From NCBI GenBank assembly GCA_965197905.1, contig CBDAOB010000004.1, forward strand, positions 1,440,001-1,504,000: a stretch of 64,000 nucleotides of DNA, read 5' to 3'. Source of the stretch: Candidatus Latescibacterota bacterium. Its GTDB lineage: Bacteria; Latescibacterota; UBA2968; UBA8231. Shown one piece after another: positions 15,001 through 21,000 of the stretch (positions are counted from its first letter, which is position 1; each line of letters opens with the position of its first letter). The position numbers were made by a program.

Positions 15001-18000
15001 AGTTGCTCCCAATTACACCGTGCTGCTCATCGTGCTCGCGCTCGGAGGCTTGGGAGTTGCGGCCTTTCATCCCCAGTCGTTCTCGCTGGCGGGAGATCTG
15101 AGCGGTAACCAGCGTTCGTTCGGGCTTTCCCTGTTTATCTTCGGGGGCACCATGGCGCTGGGCATCGTACCCCTCTGGGTGCCGTATTACACCACGGTGT
15201 TTGGACTGGAGAGCTTACCGTGGCTCAGCTTGCCTGGGATCGCGGCCGCCATTCTAGTTTTCCGCTTCGTGCCACTAGAGAATCCAACGGTCAACAGGAG
15301 CCGGAGCATCGGCGTGCGGGAAAGTCTGGGCCCCCAGGCCGTACCCCTCCTGTTGATCACTCTAGTTGTCATCGCCAGGTCGGCGGCGGGATTGGGGTTC
15401 GGGTTTTACCTGACCATCTTGGCACAGGAACGCGGGCTCTCCCTGGTGCAAGGCGGCGGCATGTTGGCGATCTACAACGTCTCAGGTGTCGTGGGCAGTT
15501 TGGCGGTAGGTTATCTCGCGGATCGGATTGAACCGAAACCGATGGTTTGGGGCGGGCTGCTCCTGGCCGGTCCCGCGCTGTACTACTTCGTCGGCTCGAC
15601 GGGATTGCTCAGCTACGTACTGCTCTTTATCGGCGGCGGATTGATGATGTCCTCGAATTCCGTGCTCGTCGCCGTCGCCCAGGAACTGGCTCCGGACAAC
15701 TCCGGTTTGGCTTCCAGCCTGCCGCTGGGATTCAGCTGGGGTATTGCCAGCCTCAGCCTGCCGTTCGTCGGGCATCTGGCCGACCAGATCGGCGTGGCGG
15801 AAACCTTGAAGTATGTCTCACTGGTTACGGTGCCAACCGGTATTCTCGCTCTATGGCTGCCCAAACGACCTAGAAATGCCGTCACGGCGGCGGCGTAAAA
15901 AAATCTCCTGCCGAGTCAGACCCGACAGGAGATACCTTACCCCTAAGGAGGATTTAGGAGACCTGGGACCAATACCTGGCCCACATTTTAATGATCGGCA
16001 CTGACCGTAAAATGTTGAGAGAATTCTGCGCTCCGTACAAGAGTGTGAACGCCAGCGCCGGAGGTTACCCCGTGCCTCTGGCGAAGTTGGCGAACGAATG
16101 TGTGGTGCCGGTGCGACGGCCGACGTATTTGTCGAGCAGAAATTCGTATATGGACACGAAGTCTTCTCGCCCGTTGTCTCTATTGTAGAAGTAACAAAAC
16201 GGGTTGGGATTCAGTTCCAGTATGCTGAATCCGTCCTTGCCGTCGATGAAGTCGATCGCATAGAACCCCAGGTCGATCACCTCCGACACCCGGCGGGCCA
16301 ACTCTTCCATTGCACCTCGACGTTCTGGGTTCGTCACCTTGACGGCGCGCCCGCTGGTTTGATGCAGGGGGTTCAAACGGCCCGGGGAAAGGCCCTCCTC
16401 GCACTTCTTCTCGTACGCCAGCAGGAGTTCCCCCTGGCTGGCCACGACGCGGTATTCGGGGCCGTGCACAAACGATTGGATCAACAGGATGTTGTCCAGG
16501 TAACCGCTGTTCTCGAACAGCATCCGCATCCTTGCTCGCAGAGACCCTCCGTCGCTTTCGAGGAAAACACCCTGAGACACAGAGCTGCGGTAACGTTTCA
16601 CCAGCAGGGGATAGGAAAACCGAGATTCGATATCATCTACCGCCTGGTCAACTGACTGGTGGTTTTTGTAGCGGTTAAAACGATCGTCGGCAAACGGATT
16701 GAAGATTTGCTCTGTCTTCGGCGTCGGCAGGCCAGACCGGGTGAACAGCTCGAATTGATATCCCTTGTCCTCAGCGAGGCGAGCGCTGACGTAGTCATTG
16801 AACGGGTGTTTGTTGCGCAGAAAGTAGAGTGGTCGCTCGCGGGTCCTGACCATGAAGACGTTGTCGTTGTCGGATACGCGCTGGCATTCGAAACCGCTGC
16901 GCTGACTGGCCATGGCAATGCAAGTCAGGCTCTCCAACGGCACCTCTTCGCTGATGCCCTCGCGTTCCATAGGGAGATTGAAGAATTCCCGCGCCCGCGC
17001 GACCAGGTGCAACGAACCGGTCACACAGAGAAACTGCTCGGGGCCGAGGCCGTCGAGCGCTTGTCGCAACGCCTGCGTCCAGGTACCGACCTTTAGATGG
17101 TCCAACCCGGTCGGCACGGCCTCTTCCAGCGCGTCGACATCGTAGGCTTTGGGGTGATCCGACGAGGTGAGGATAACCTGGTTAGCCGACGGTTTCAGCG
17201 CCGCCAGGATGCCTGCCGGGTCGTGCCCATCGTTGACTCCCACGACGAAGGTCCAGCGCGACGAGAGTGTGCTCAGGTCAGCGACCAGAGCTTCGGCAGC
17301 GGCTGGATTGTGGGCTCCGTCCAGCAAAACGCAGGGCTTGTCGTGAGCTTTCTCGAAGCGCCCCGGCCACCGGTGGCCGGCTATCACCTGCCTAGCCCGC
17401 TCGTGGTCGAAACGATCGTCCATGAGCAACCGAACCGCGCTAACAGCCAGCGTGGCATTCTCGATGTAGTAGCGAGGACGCTGGAAACCTCCCGTCGACA
17501 CAGCGGTCGACGGCGCCACGTCGTTTGCGGGAAACGCCCGCGGGCGAAACTCCGCCTCCTTCTTGGCATCTGGCGGTCGGACGCAGGGATCGACACTCTG
17601 AGAAATCTGCAGATCCACCTTTTCGCGCTCACAGTAAGCGCGGAGAAAATCCAGTACAATCGGGTTTTGCACAGGAGTGGATACCAAGGTGTGGCCCGGC
17701 CGGGCAATGTTAACCTTGTCGGCCGCGATGCTCAAGAGATCCGCGCCCAGAACCTCTACGTGATCCAGAGCAACCGGCGTCAAGACAGCCAATTCGGAGT
17801 CCCACGCGTTGGTTGCGTCGAAACGCCCTCCGAGTCCCACCTCGAAAACGCCGTACTGCATCTCCGCTTTGCTGAAAAGGTGGGCTGCCAGTGCGGTCAC
17901 CGCTTCGAATTTGCTGAAGGAGCCGAATCCTTCGGTTTCGAATTCCCGGGTTTGATCGTAGAAGAAACTCGTGGCTTCCGCCCACCCGTCTCGGTCTACA

Positions 18001-21000
18001 AGAGAGCCTTGAATCTGAATTCGTTCGCGCACGGTGTGCAGATGTGGTTGGGTGTACAACCCGACAGTGCACCCTGAAGCCTTCAATATCGCCGCTACCA
18101 GGCTGGCCACTGTGCCTTTGCCGTTGGAACCGCCGACGATCACCGAACGAAAGCTTTGTTGCGGGTCCCCGAGACGCTTCAGCAATTGCCGCATGCGCGG
18201 CAGGTACCCGTTAAGCGGCCCCAACTGCGGACGGCCTGTCTCCCAGTCGGGCAGGGTGTCGAGGTAGCGTCTGCTGTGGAAGTAGTCCACTGGTGGCCTA
18301 GCCTCCCCGCGTGTGCATCTCGCGGTGGGGGTACTTCTGCAGCTGCTCAATCTGATAGAGCGCTCCCCGCTCGGAAGTGGAACGCCGCAACTCGGCCCCG
18401 CGGTCCTGGCGTTTGTTCCAGGCCTTGCGAATGAGGTCCGCCAAGCCGGCATCTGCCCCCTCCTTTCGCAGAACCTGGCGCAGGTCGATTCCGTCTTGCG
18501 CATAAAGACAGAGGTACCAGATACCGTCAGCGGTCAGACGACTGCGATCGCAGGCGCTACAGAAGGGTTCGGTCACGGAGGCAATGACCCCGAACCGTTG
18601 CCCGTTGGAAAGCTCAAATCGGCGGGCAGGTGCGTGACCCTGATTCCCCTGCGCGCGGACTGGTCCACATCGCTTCTGGATATGTTCGACGATCTCCGCA
18701 CTGCTCACCACCTGATCCGCGCTCCACCTTGTCGCTCCGCCCACGTCCATGTACTCTATAAACCGTATTTCTGCCCCGACCCGCTCCCCGAACTCCACCA
18801 GGTCAACCAGCTCGTCGTCGTTGAATCCACGCATCACAACCACATTTATCTTTAACCCCGTGAACCCCGCGGCCTTCACACCTTCGATCCCGTCGAGTAC
18901 CTTGGACAGGTCGGCACGCCGCGTGAGGTGAGCAAAACGGTCGGGACGCAACGAGTCGAGACTGACCGTTACCCGATCCAATCCGGCGTTGCGCAGGCGT
19001 TCCGCCCAGCGCGCCAACTGGGTTCCGTTGGTGGTAAGCGCGATTTCACGTATGGAAGGGATTTGTCGCAGGCGGCTCACCAGCTGGTCGAGGTCGGCGC
19101 GAAGCAGGGGTTCACCCCCGGTTATGCGCACGCGGCTAACACCCAACCCGGCGAAGGTTTCCGCAAGCGTTGATATCTCGTCAAAGCTGAGGATGTCGCT
19201 TGAAGGGAGCCAAGAATACTCGGGCTCCGGCATACAGTAGGAACAGCGCAGATCGCAACGGTCGATGACCGACACCCGCAAGCTGTGCAACGGACGACCC
19301 AGTTCGTCTAGCAATTGTTCCGAGGAGGGGGCCGACACTTCAGTCGTCATGTAAGACACTTCTGCGCCGATTCGACGCCTCGGTAGAATGGTTCGGGATC
19401 GCGAGCGGTGGTTGAGCTGGGACGATCAGGAGAAACTCAGCGGTTGCACAAAACTCCCGATTCTGCGGTGATCAGGCGGGCAGTCGACTATAGTGAACGT
19501 GCCGTAAAGCCAGCATTAATATAGGGATTGGTCCAACCGGAGCAATCCTGGACCGTACTCCGATTCCTTGCAAGTGCCGTTAGCTGGATTCATATTAATA
19601 GGTTTGTCGCTGACCACCCAGCGACCGTTCGGTGGGACCTGTCGAGAAGTCGGCGATGGCGATGGACCTGTGTGTGACCCGACGGCGAGAATTATGAACG
19701 GCTCATGGCAAGATCAGGACTCACAGAATGAAGGAGCTACGGCATATTCTCGAGACCGTCGGCCGGATCCGGACCGGCGAGCGATTGGCGATGGCTACCG
19801 TAGTGGAGACCACAGGCTCCTTCTATCGTGCCCCTGGAGTTCGTATGGTGGTAGACGCGCGCCAGCAAACCGCCGGCACCATGGGTGGGGGATGTCTTGA
19901 AGGCGATCTGTTGGAACATGCCCATGAGGTGCGCGAATCTGGCCGGTCCCAACTGCTGACCTACGATTCCACCTCGGACGACGATGTTCTGTGGGGTACC
20001 GGCCGGGGGTGTGCCGGGGTTACCAAGATATTGCTTGAAGCGTTGCCCCAGGCCGGAGGCGTTGAATTCATGGAGTTTCTCGGGTCATGCGTGACGTCCC
20101 GCACATCGGGGGTTCTGACCACAGCCTACGAATGGGAGGGTCGAGACGATGCGGCGGTGCCACGGCGATTGATCTTGAGAGAAAACGGTTCCATAGAGGA
20201 CGACTTCTGCGAAAGCGAGGTGCGGAAGGTTGTGGAGCGCGAAGCGAGGAGTGAATGGGAACATCTCGCTTCTCGGCAGGCGCCGTCGGCACGACCCTAT
20301 TCCCGCTCGTGTGACTACCCGGGTGGCCGCGTCCGTTTCCTGGTTGAGCCGGTGCAACCGCCGACGCGGCTGGTGGTTTTTGGCGCCGATTCCCACATCG
20401 CGCCCCTGGTGCGTTTCGCCGTTGAATTGGGATGGGACGTGGCTGTGGTGGACCACCGGCCATCGCGCGCCCGGCCGGAGCGGTTTCCCGAGGCGAGCAC
20501 CGTACTCCTTTCGACGGCCGATGAAACAGCCGACAAGGTCGCGCTGGACTGGCGATCGGTAGTGTTGGTCATGACCCATGACTATCTGAACGACCTCGCT
20601 CTTCTCCGGCATCTGGTAGGAGTAGACCTGGAGTACCTGGGCATTCTCGGACCTCGTGAACGCACCGGTCGCCTTATGAGCGACTTGAAACGGGAGGGAG
20701 TGGACCTCCGCAAAGAAGCGGCGCACCGGGTGTTCAGTCCGGCCGGTCTGGACATCGGTGCCGACACCTCCGAGGAGATCGGGCTCTCGATCATTGCCGA
20801 GATTCAGGCATTTCGTAGCGGACGCCAGGGCGGTTATCTGCGCGACCGCAGTGGCCCCATTCATGACCGCGAGCTGAACTGATGGACGAGTTGACCTTCG
20901 ACATTCAGAATATCGCCGCCGGTCAGGGATCTGACCTCGCCATTACCGGGATGGTTATCGTATTTGTCGCCCTGACACTGATCAGCCTGTTCATCCGCTT

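What a model noticed while it worked through the whole genome (the two positions that open the first line are those of the whole stretch)
16065..18290. The genome's only FolC is fused to a RimK-type poly-alpha-glutamate ATP-grasp ligase
g02967 (741 aa) joins a complete folylpolyglutamate/dihydrofolate synthase (res 1-440) to a C-terminal ATP-grasp ligase of the RimK kind (res ~465-725). No second FolC is called. The fusion predicts that the gamma-glutamyl tail of folate is extended or capped by an alpha-type ligase on the same polypeptide, as CofE and the RimK-family CofF do for F420; it offers a candidate for folylpoly-alpha-glutamate ligase activity.
Evidence so far: ncbifam.tsv: only FolC row is g02967; pfam Mur_ligase_C (310-426) + RimK (546-703, 6e-8). 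Swiss-Prot FolC hits cover res 16-435 only. AlphaFold model with 22 rows: pLDDT 82.5, pTM 0.70. Foldseek: N-part = FPGS/FolC (2vos, 3n2a, 1w78; TM 0.82-0.85), C-part best ATP-grasp matches = RimK (5zct_C E 1.5e-12, 7qys, 4iwx, 5zk6). 60+ invariant columns in res 490-710 of 22 fused homologues. Search with res 445-741: 260 proteins at E<=0.001, nearly all 690-770 aa with Mur-ligase and RimK rows, named Latescibacteria/-ota, Gemmatimonadetes. Literature search: none of the 10 listed papers is on such a fusion.
(Added by a program. Inside this text positions count along the whole contig: contig position 1,440,001 is position 1 of the stretch shown here. "Call 12" and the like, gene names such as g00115 and contig names such as C1 are that model's own, and its searches are not shown. 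The text may have been shortened before it was handed on; [...] marks where a part breaks off. The agent that wrote the report below was given it as the finding of a first reader that could run no searches.)

Follow-up and report, generated by a model that had tools for sequence, protein, structure and literature searches.

The report
Sole FolC fused to ATP-grasp ligase
In this bacterium the only enzyme that attaches glutamate to folate is permanently joined to a second, intact amino-acid ligase of an undescribed family, which suggests, without proving it, that its folate carries an unusual tail.

Summary
Window 16065-18290 (-) encodes one 741-aa protein. Residues 1-440 are a full FolC (TIGR01499, 278 bits against a cut-off of 163). 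Residues 449-725 are an ATP-grasp ligase with all nucleotide- and Mg-binding residues invariant. It is the only FolC in the genome, and DHPS is present.

The fusion is fixed in three families of one class of the phylum (108 of 112 sampled genomes) and was not found in the other families sampled. In 38 of 38 fused-clade genomes checked it is the sole FolC.

"RimK-type" is too specific. The domain fails the RimK, LysX, CofF and MptN family cut-offs. It belongs to a large uncharacterised family of about 275-aa stand-alone ATP-grasp proteins. ArgX/LysX and RimK are the nearest solved folds.

The known acceptors of that clade are missing or poorly conserved here: LysW, F420 and methanopterin markers were not found, and S6 lacks a conserved terminal Glu. 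Folate is the obvious glutamate-ended acceptor left.

Adding an alpha-linked residue to the folate tail is the best reading (about 0.45), but it is inferred, with no chemistry. Stand-alone relatives rarely sit near folate genes (2 of 80 loci). This scan reached a like conclusion earlier on another genome (e1-6763934).

The parts
16065..18290 (-). Whole gene: 741-aa FolC + ATP-grasp fusion (GTG start at 18290; stop codon 16065-16067)
16971..18290 (-). FolC (dihydrofolate synthase / folylpolyglutamate synthase) domain, residues 1-440
   Evidence: TIGR01499 278.1 bits against cut-off 162.65. Aligns to M. tuberculosis FolC 2vor (3e-44) and L. casei FPGS 1fgs (1.8e-43). Foldseek TMt 0.82-0.85.
18111..18134 (-). 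Mur-ligase P-loop GGSNGKGT, residues 53-60
   Evidence: G54, N56, G57 and K58 are invariant in 51 fused homologues. The loop aligns to the GTNGK of the solved FolC/FPGS sequences.
17487..17564 (-). Variable, low-confidence insertion inside the FolC domain, residues 243-268
   Evidence: pLDDT below 50. Mean pairwise identity is 27% in residues 236-272, against 58% for the rest of the domain.
16947..16970 (-). Short linker, residues 441-448
   Evidence: pLDDT dips to 66 in block 441-450. The first helix of the ATP-grasp module starts at residue 449.
16116..16946 (-). Compact ATP-grasp ligase module, residues 449-725, equivalent to a whole stand-alone protein of about 275 aa
   Evidence: Stand-alone homologues of 265-290 aa cover query residues about 10-277. 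Modelled alone it has pLDDT 93.4. ArgX Z 22.1, LysX/ArgX 21.8, RimK 20.1.
16209..16598 (-). Stretch holding the invariant ATP-grasp residues K565, E612, R614, D680, E692 and N694
   Evidence: These are invariant across 40 fused and stand-alone family members, where they number K121, E168, R170, D236, E248 and N250. They are also invariant in 51 fused proteins. They align to RimK ..vvK.., DiR and E.N.
18298..19359 (-). moaA-like gene (radical SAM + Mob_synth_C) directly upstream on the same strand, with a 7-nt gap
   Evidence: The same neighbour is present in 2 of 2 other loci examined from the same family (L093, L095).
18302..18306 (-). GGAGG, a Shine-Dalgarno-like motif 11 nt before the GTG
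   Evidence: read from the sequence
15903..15933 (-). Terminator-like hairpin (14-bp stem, then T7) about 130 nt after the stop codon
   Evidence: This is a consensus match only; the number of such sites in the region is not above the shuffles.

Best explanation
A bifunctional folate-tail enzyme.

The N-terminal domain is the cell's housekeeping FolC. It adds the first glutamate to dihydropteroate and then adds gamma-linked glutamates. This step rests on strong homology, on FolC being the sole copy, and on DHPS being present.

The C-terminal domain is an active ATP-grasp ligase of a new family within the RimK/LysX/ArgX branch. The inferred mechanism follows the common chemistry of that branch. 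The domain takes the glutamate-ended product made next door and phosphorylates a free carboxylate of the terminal glutamate, most likely the alpha one. It then joins an amino acid to it, most likely L-glutamate. The result would be an alpha-linked cap or extension on the folate tail, as CofF does for F420 and MptN does for methanopterin.

The acceptor, the linkage and the added amino acid are all inferred.
For: (1) One reading frame joins the two domains through an 8-residue linker. The fusion is present in 59/63, 30/30 and 19/19 sampled genomes of three families (108 of 112). No fused or strong match appeared in the other families sampled, f4-f14; the only hits there were weak ones in 3 genomes, to 304-317-aa ORFs.

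(2) It is the only FolC in the own genome and in 38 of 38 fused-clade genomes checked. Relatives in family f4 have a plain FolC of 458-464 aa. DHPS is present.

(3) The ATP-grasp domain is under at least as much constraint as FolC. Mean pairwise identity is 59.6% against 57.8%, and columns conserved in >=97% of sequences are 66/277 against 74/403, in 117 homologues. The Lys, Glu-x-Arg and Asp/Glu/Asn residues are invariant across the whole family.

(4) The nearest characterised relatives all act on the carboxylate of a terminal glutamate. By profile, ArgX is 2.8e-12 and RimK 5.3e-12. By fold, Z is 22.1, 21.8 and 20.1. The best NCBIfam rows are rimK_fam, LysX and MptN.

(5) The other known acceptors of that branch are not evident. 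No LysW, no CofE and no beta-RFAP synthase were found in the 91%-complete genome. S6 ends ...EEGDS here and ends in Glu in only 7 of 20 fused-clade genomes.

(6) Distant stand-alone family members lie beside folate genes in three lineages. In Caldithrix the member sits about 500 nt upstream of that genome's only folC. In Symploca the order is a folC paralogue, a RimK-like gene, then a family member. In Nostoc three tandem copies lie beside an HPPK-PabB gene.

(7) Precedents: alpha linkages are reported in the distal tail of E. coli folates (passage read in PMC1971073). ATP-grasp glutamate ligases MyfA and MyfB build the methylofuran tail (passages read in PMC8141765).
Against: There is no chemistry of any kind.

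Only 2 of 80 stand-alone loci have a folC within the fetched flanks, and otherwise the neighbours vary.

The stand-alone family also occurs in Patescibacteria and in variable regions of cyanobacterial genomes, so its general role need not be folate.

The nearest stand-alone clade (G1) has unknown context.

In the Caldithrix phylum sample only 1 of 61 genomes carries the gene, so that adjacency is a single event.

The Symploca genome has three FolC paralogues, so its clustered copy may serve another product.

The RimK stretch RSNLHRGG is kept only as N..LH in this family.

Neighbours of the fused gene are not folate genes.
Confidence: 0.45

Rival explanations
1. The ATP-grasp domain modifies a protein C-terminus, as RimK does on ribosomal protein S6 or on another acidic tail. 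On this reading the fusion only couples its expression or regulation to folate status.
For: RimK is among the closest solved relatives. S6 proteins of this class carry long acidic tails. One Taylorbacteria locus has S6 two genes downstream of a stand-alone family member. There is no canonical RimK in the genome.
Against: The RimK family cut-offs are not met. The S6 C-terminal residue is Glu in only 7 of 20 fused-clade genomes and is Ser here, while the ligase domain is very strongly conserved. A permanent fusion to the sole FolC across a whole clade is hard to explain by co-regulation alone.
Confidence: 0.15
2. The ATP-grasp domain performs another ligation in the same pathway. It might add the first glutamate to dihydropteroate, leaving the FolC domain as FPGS only. 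Or it might make a dipeptide that FolC then attaches.
For: Fused FolC domains score lower against TIGR01499 (about 252-299 bits for full-length matches) than the unfused FolC of family f4 (361-391 bits). This would fit a change in the FolC domain's role. Free-amino-acid ligases (D-Ala-D-Ala ligases) are the next nearest ATP-grasp structures.
Against: All FolC motifs that align to bifunctional and monofunctional solved enzymes are retained. No precedent for such a split was found in the searches made. The nearest relatives act on glutamate-ended acceptors, not on aryl carboxylates.
Confidence: 0.12
3. The two domains together build a folate-independent poly-amino-acid product, like cyanophycin synthetase, which also pairs an ATP-grasp domain with a Mur-ligase-like domain.
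For: One homologue is named cyanophycin synthetase by its source. CphA1 and CphA2 appear among the fold matches. Symploca has a cluster of an extra FolC paralogue with two ATP-grasp genes.
Against: The TIGR02068 match is 29 bits against a cut-off of 850 and covers only the P-loop. The domain order is the reverse of CphA1. The gene is the sole FolC in a genome with DHPS, so it must serve folate.
Confidence: 0.06
4. The ATP-grasp domain is a non-catalytic regulatory or scaffolding appendage.
For: None beyond the lack of any assay.
Against: Every nucleotide- and metal-binding residue is invariant in 51 fused proteins. The domain has more fully conserved columns than the essential FolC domain.
Confidence: 0.04

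Closest known systems
FolC (bifunctional dihydrofolate synthase / folylpolyglutamate synthase; solved in E. coli 1w78, M. tuberculosis 2vos, L. casei 1fgs)
   Same: Residues 1-440 match over the family cut-off. They have the same fold and the same P-loop and Mg/substrate motifs, and the gene is the only copy in the genome.
   Different: The known enzymes end at about 420-490 aa. This one carries about 300 further residues forming a second ligase, plus a variable insertion at 243-268.
RimK (ribosomal protein S6:L-glutamate ligase, poly-alpha-glutamate synthetase)
   Same: ATP-grasp fold (Z 20.1; Foldseek 5.8e-14). It shares the Lys, D/E-x-R and D/E/N residues and an N..LH stretch.
   Different: It scores 51 bits against the family cut-off of 143.4 and does not hit the S6-ligase equivalog. 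The N-terminal domain is reduced. The Arg and Gly-Gly of RSNLHRGG are not conserved. The S6 terminal Glu is not conserved in the clade.
LysX / ArgX (amino-group carrier protein ligases)
   Same: These are the best structural and profile matches (3vpb Z 22.1, E 2.8e-12; 5k2m Z 21.8). They also act on a C-terminal glutamate.
   Different: TIGR02144 scores 21.6 bits against a cut-off of 275.6. No LysW carrier was found in the genome.
CofF (gamma-F420-2:alpha-L-glutamate ligase) and MptN (tetrahydromethanopterin:alpha-L-glutamate ligase)
   Same: These are the functional model: RimK-family ligases that add an alpha-linked glutamate to the glutamate or carboxylate end of a cofactor. There are weak HMM matches to relatives, and MptN scores 12.3 bits to the target.
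   Different: The scores are far below the cut-offs (350 and 300). No CofE or beta-RFAP synthase was found in the genome, so those cofactors are probably not made. Neither enzyme is fused to the gamma-ligase.
GshF (bifunctional gamma-glutamylcysteine ligase / ATP-grasp glutathione synthetase) and the MurC-Ddl fusion
   Same: The architectural logic is the same. A first ligase is fused to a C-terminal ATP-grasp ligase of the same pathway. [quoted passage not shown] GshF 3ln6 and 3ln7 appear among the fold matches, and NF002688 hits stand-alone relatives.
   Different: The first domain belongs to a different superfamily in GshF. The substrates are different, and there is no detectable close sequence relation.
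Cyanophycin synthetase CphA1
   Same: It also combines an ATP-grasp domain and a Mur-ligase-like domain in one chain, and it is among the fold matches.
   Different: The domain order is reversed. TIGR02068 scores 29 bits against a cut-off of 850. The Mur-like part here is a bona fide FolC.

Membership tests
FolC / FPGS-DHFS (TIGR01499) | HMM score over the curated cut-off, full length | tested here: met
   278.1 bits against 162.65, model positions 1-399 of 400; 280.3 bits on the genome
FolC / FPGS-DHFS (TIGR01499) | Mur-ligase P-loop and the conserved acidic/His/Lys motifs seen in solved FolC/FPGS | tested here: met
   GGSNGKGT, EVGLGGRFDATN, ALDH, ADK, PGRFE and DGAHNP align to 2vor and 1fgs. 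G54, N56, G57, K58, E150, D158, N161, D176, H177, K192, D324 and H327 are invariant in 51 homologues. The roles of these residues are recalled, not tested.
FolC / FPGS-DHFS (TIGR01499) | FolC fold | tested here: met
   Foldseek 2vos 3.4e-28 at TMt 0.82; 1w78 0.83; 3nrs 0.85
FolC / FPGS-DHFS (TIGR01499) | DHFS and FPGS activity | not testable with these tools
   Inferred from its being the sole copy and from the presence of DHPS
ATP-grasp superfamily | ATP-grasp fold with the nucleotide-binding Lys and the Mg-binding Asp/Glu/Asn | tested here: met
   Z 15-22 to many ATP-grasp enzymes. K565, E612, R614, D680, E692 and N694 are invariant.
RimK family (TIGR00768; S6 ligase equivalog NF007764) | HMM score over the curated cut-off | tested here: not met
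   TIGR00768 scores 51 bits against 143.4, model positions 77-255 only. NF007764 is not among the rows at E<=1.
RimK family (TIGR00768; S6 ligase equivalog NF007764) | Acceptor: ribosomal protein S6 ending in glutamate (requirement recalled) | tested here: inconclusive
   The own S6 ends ...EEGDS. 7 of 20 fused-clade S6 proteins end in Glu, though the tails are acidic.
RimK family (TIGR00768; S6 ligase equivalog NF007764) | RSNLHRGG substrate-loop stretch as in the solved RimK sequence | tested here: not met
   Only N..LH is kept (N640, L642, H643). The Arg and Gly-Gly positions are not conserved.
LysX / ArgX (TIGR02144) | HMM cut-off and presence of the LysW carrier | tested here: not met
   21.6 bits against 275.6. 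No TIGR01206 match in the 91%-complete genome.
CofF (TIGR04443) / MptN (NF040720) | HMM cut-off and presence of the F420 or methanopterin pathway | tested here: not met
   MptN scores 12.3 bits against 350 and there is no CofF row. No CofE and no beta-RFAP synthase were found.
Cyanophycin synthetase (TIGR02068) | HMM cut-off and the N-G-M domain order | tested here: not met
   29.4 bits against 850, with the best stretch covering only the P-loop (residues 50-80). The order here is Mur-like first, then ATP-grasp.
Folylpoly-alpha-glutamate ligase (activity reported in E. coli extracts; no gene named in the passages read) | ATP-dependent addition of alpha-linked glutamate to folylpoly-gamma-glutamate | not testable with these tools
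   The activity is mentioned in PMC1971073 (passage read). There is no sequence to compare with.

The most novel reading that the evidence does not exclude
The C-terminal domain is a folyl-(gamma-glutamyl)n:alpha-amino-acid ligase. Folates of this Latescibacterota class would then carry an alpha-linked cap or a mixed alpha/gamma tail, made by a two-active-site enzyme. The wider family of about 275-aa stand-alone ATP-grasp proteins (cyanobacteria, Patescibacteria, Caldithrix and others) would include the first genes for the orphan folylpoly-alpha-glutamate ligase activity.
Probability: 0.35. Interest if true: 0.8.

Novelty: new variant of a known kind. Interest (0 to 1): 0.6.

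Why it matters
Folate tails are taken to be gamma-linked polyglutamates made by FolC alone.

Alpha linkages were reported in E. coli decades ago, and the passages I read name no gene for them.

Here a whole bacterial class has welded a second, strongly conserved amino-acid ligase onto its only FolC. That gives a concrete, expressible candidate for a new folate-tail chemistry. 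It also gives a handle on a large, unnamed family of small ATP-grasp enzymes.

If the prediction fails, the protein still shows that an essential cofactor enzyme is obligatorily paired with a ligase of unknown substrate.

Tried and rejected
(1) Complex prediction of the FolC domain (1-440) against the ATP-grasp domain (445-730), both with alignment A4, gave no verdict: ipSAE 0.00 and 0.00, controls not run. It is not used either way.

(2) I could not find the genomic context of the nearest stand-alone clade, G1 (P0155-P0164). The alignment was too diverse for the search for related loci. Single-protein scans of metagenome contigs with P0158 and P0161 found no relative. Cluster look-up gave no organism names.

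(3) The first scan of genome contigs with alignment A1 failed because no stretch was conserved enough. I repeated it with the narrower alignment A2.

(4) PF27239 is not in the local Pfam library. The ESM Atlas names it FOL3_C, so it is part of FolC and not a new domain.

I could not measure the distance or orientation between the two active sites.

(6) Neighbours of the fused gene gave no folate link. They are moaA in family f1, a MobA-like gene a few kb away in two loci of one genus of f2, and MiaB/RimO-like genes in two other loci. I rejected a molybdopterin link as family-level synteny only.

(7) The Caldithrix adjacency is not a conserved trait: 1 of 61 genomes sampled from that phylum has the gene.

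(8) Literature searches found no paper on a FolC-ATP-grasp fusion and none naming a gene for folate alpha-glutamylation. For the papers listed by those searches I saw only listings and abstract openings. For PMC8141765, PMC1971073 and PMC10861534 I read passages.

(9) The tree is the quick IQ-TREE search, because the careful one did not finish. I use only its starred branches.

Full report
WHAT IS THERE

On the minus strand of the window one frame is open from 18503 to 16065. The gene starts at the GTG at 18290, for three reasons. The consensus of 51 full-length homologues begins exactly there (MDYF...). A GGAGG lies 11 nt upstream. The stop codon of the preceding moaA-like gene lies 7 nt before the GTG. 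The product has 741 residues. A terminator-like hairpin (14-bp stem, T7) follows about 130 nt after the stop codon (a consensus match only).

THE N-TERMINAL DOMAIN IS FolC

Residues 30-436 match TIGR01499 folC at 278.1 bits against a curated cut-off of 162.65. Pfam finds Mur_ligase_M and Mur_ligase_C.

By sequence it aligns to M. tuberculosis FolC (3e-44) and L. casei FPGS (1.8e-43). The P-loop and the EVGxGGRxDATN, ALDH, ADK, PGRFE and DGAHNP stretches are in register. These residues are invariant in 51 homologues.

The AlphaFold2 model (51 rows, pLDDT 86.9, pTM 0.81) matches solved FolC/FPGS at TMt 0.82-0.85. Residues 243-268 form a variable, unmodelled insertion.

The genome (6.69 Mb, 91% complete) has a single match over the FolC cut-off; the four others are weak, at 20.9-29.3 bits. 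It also has a DHPS gene at 286.7 bits. The organism therefore makes folate de novo, and this protein must supply the glutamylation steps.

THE C-TERMINAL DOMAIN IS AN INTACT ATP-GRASP LIGASE, BUT NOT A RimK

Pfam RimK matches at 1.5e-7. The NCBIfam RimK family model gives 51 bits against a cut-off of 143.4, and only from model position 77 onward. The S6-ligase equivalog does not appear, LysX gives 21.6 bits and MptN 12.3 bits. RimK sequences in the PDB match the domain at E 0.03 only.

An exhaustive HMMER search with residues 445-741 found 419 representatives at E<=0.001. Beyond the fused proteins, these form a large family of stand-alone proteins of about 265-290 aa, 22-39% identical, that cover the whole query (about 10-277). 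The C-terminal part is therefore a complete small ATP-grasp protein joined to FolC through an 8-residue linker. Twenty-five of these stand-alone proteins all have rimK_fam as best NCBIfam row, at 38.7-97.3 bits and always under the cut-off.

Across 40 fused and stand-alone members, ten residues are invariant: K565, E612, R614, Y626, D680, E692 and N694, plus K509, P561 and P697 (numbering of the 741-aa protein). In the alignment to RimK they fall on ..vvK.., DiR and E.N. The RimK stretch RSNLHRGG is kept only as N..LH.

Modelled alone, the domain has pLDDT 93.4. An all-against-representatives structural search puts ArgX (Z 22.1), LysX/ArgX (21.8) and RimK (20.1) first, ahead of D-Ala-D-Ala ligases (17.3-18.8). 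Foldseek ranks RimK first at 5.8e-14. A family profile finds ArgX at 2.8e-12, RimK at 5.3e-12 and Ddl from 1e-8.

So the domain is a new family on the RimK/LysX/ArgX branch. The characterised members of that branch all activate a carboxylate of a terminal glutamate on a protein or cofactor and join an amino acid to it (established knowledge of those families).

HOW WIDESPREAD AND HOW CONSTRAINED

In 151 genomes sampled from the phylum, strong matches (E<=1e-81) lie almost always inside open frames of 692 aa or more; one lies in a 529-aa frame on a short contig. They occur in families f1 (59/63), f2 (30/30) and f3 (19/19). In the remaining families of the sample there were only weak hits, in 3 genomes, to 304-317-aa frames.

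In a second sample (41 genomes, >=90% complete), all 38 genomes of f1-f3 have exactly one FolC locus. It lies in the long frame in 37; in G062 it is cut by a contig end. Two genomes of family f4 have an ordinary FolC of 458-464 aa.

Sources name the homologues Latescibacteria/-ota (6) or Gemmatimonadetes (1). The ESM Atlas cluster of 704-aa proteins is mostly Candidatus Latescibacterota.

Among 117 fused homologues the ATP-grasp domain is at least as conserved as the FolC domain. Mean pairwise identity is 59.6% against 57.8%, and columns conserved in >=97% of sequences are 66 of 277 against 74 of 403.

A quick maximum-likelihood tree (careful search unfinished) shows the fused domains as one clade (SH-aLRT 99). 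That clade is sister to a stand-alone group G1 of unknown origin (support 100 for the pair). All cyanobacterial, Patescibacterial and other stand-alone proteins fall outside. The fusion thus arose once from a stand-alone gene.

WHAT THE LIGASE ACTS ON: EVIDENCE BY ELIMINATION AND BY ASSOCIATION

I looked for the known acceptors of the branch in this genome:
- No LysW.
- No CofE, hence probably no F420 tail.
- No beta-RFAP synthase, hence probably no methanopterin.
- No canonical RimK.
- Ribosomal protein S6 is present with a long acidic tail, but it ends ...EEGDS. In 20 fused-clade genomes the last residue is Glu in 7 and Ser, Ala, Gln, Arg or Gly in 13.

The one glutamate-ended molecule certainly made here is the product of the domain next door.

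The stand-alone family occurs in 312 species genomes. Within the 80 loci fetched, a FolC gene lies in the flanks of two:
- In a Caldithrix MAG the family member sits about 500 nt upstream, on the same strand, of that genome's only folC. It is the only one of 61 sampled genomes of its phylum that has the gene.
- In a Symploca MAG the order is a FolC paralogue, a RimK-like gene, then the family member. That genome has three FolC paralogues.
- In Nostoc NIES-4103, three tandem copies lie beside a convergent HPPK-PabB fusion gene.

The other loci show no common neighbours: tRNA synthetases, TatD, toxin-antitoxin genes, UmuDC-like genes and others. Around the fused gene itself the neighbours are moaA (own family, 3 of 3 loci including the window) or unrelated genes.

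MECHANISM PROPOSED

Shown by homology: FolC chemistry in domain 1, and a competent ATP-grasp site in domain 2.

Inferred: domain 2 binds the glutamyl end of the folate just made by domain 1. It forms an acyl phosphate on its free alpha-carboxylate and adds an amino acid, probably L-glutamate. This would give an alpha-linked cap or extension.

Precedents:
- CofF on F420 and MptN on methanopterin (family names from NCBIfam; their chemistry is established knowledge).
- MyfA and MyfB on methylofuran (passages of PMC8141765).
- GshF, where a gamma-glutamyl ligase is fused to an ATP-grasp ligase that extends the product (recalled; GshF is among the fold matches).
- The report of alpha linkages in the distal tail of E. 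coli folates (passage of PMC1971073).

I put this reading at 0.45. The rivals are a protein-tail ligase (0.15), another ligation in the pathway (0.12), a folate-independent polymer (0.06) and a non-catalytic appendage (0.04). The rest is left for something not considered.

WHAT WEAKENS IT

- There is no assay.
- 78 of 80 stand-alone loci have no folC nearby.
- The family occurs in Patescibacteria and in variable genome regions.
- The context of the nearest stand-alone clade could not be recovered.
- The inter-domain geometry could not be examined, and the docking job gave no verdict.

NOVELTY

Five full-text searches found no paper on such a fusion and none naming a gene for folate alpha-glutamylation. 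The library lacks most subscription journals, so this is not proof of absence.

An earlier report of this scan on another genome (e1-6763934) described the same architecture in the same phylum and reached the same general reading. I reproduced its core claims independently here. I also added the stand-alone family, the tree, the elimination of other acceptors and the folate-linked stand-alone loci.

I class the finding as a new variant of a known kind: two known ligase superfamilies in a new, clade-fixed architecture, with a new ATP-grasp family and an undescribed product.

Noticed in passing
window 11359-12827, 18298-19359, 19728-20882: Several genes for GTP-derived cofactors lie within 10 kb of the FolC fusion: QueC (11359-12192), a radical-SAM QueE-like ORF (12033-12827), moaA (18298-19359) and an XdhC-type molybdenum-cofactor chaperone (19728-20882). 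Only the moaA adjacency was seen again in related genomes.
   Followed up: partly
window 20882-24161 and 24177-24977: There is a Na+-pumping oxaloacetate-decarboxylase-type operon: gamma subunit 20882-21142, beta 21139-22266, and alpha with a biotinyl domain 22290-24161. It is followed on the other strand by a biotin/lipoate protein ligase family gene.
   Followed up: no
L092 1270-1782 (-), own genome C4:1788117-1788629: Ribosomal protein S6 is 170 aa, with a C-terminal extension of about 70 residues that is acidic and low in complexity. Such tails are general in this class, with lengths of 105-199 aa and variable last residues.
   Followed up: partly
L014 4513-7819 (Symploca sp. SIO1C2 MAG): A same-strand cluster holds a FolC paralogue (453 aa), a RimK-like ATP-grasp (312 aa) and a small ATP-grasp of the family studied (274 aa). 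The genome has three FolC paralogues. The cluster could make a polyglutamylated product other than folate.
   Followed up: partly
L056 5000-10108 (Nostoc sp. NIES-4103) and L058 (Amazonocrinis nigriterrae): Three tandem paralogues of the small ATP-grasp family occur in both genomes. In L056 they abut a convergent gene fusing HPPK (folK) to a PabB-like chorismate-binding enzyme.
   Followed up: partly
proteins P0155, P0157, P0160 (stand-alone clade G1): Three of the nearest stand-alone relatives end in similar His/Gln/Ser-rich low-complexity tails (...HRRLPQS.QS...) that the others lack. This could be read-through into conserved downstream DNA, or a real appendage. Their organisms are unknown.
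   Followed up: no
L093 7033-9746 and L095 6827-8074 (same family as the window): In two related genomes a Cys/Met-metabolism PLP enzyme gene lies on the same strand downstream of the FolC fusion. In L095 its ORF overlaps the end of the fusion gene. In L093 it follows a GHL10-like ORF that overlaps that end. In the window this gene is absent, and a terminator-like hairpin and an opposite-strand MFS transporter follow instead.
   Followed up: no
ESM Atlas neighbours of P0158: One cluster of 261-aa ATP-grasp proteins close to the family by language-model features is 75% viral (Uroviricota; phylum known for only 4 members).
   Followed up: no
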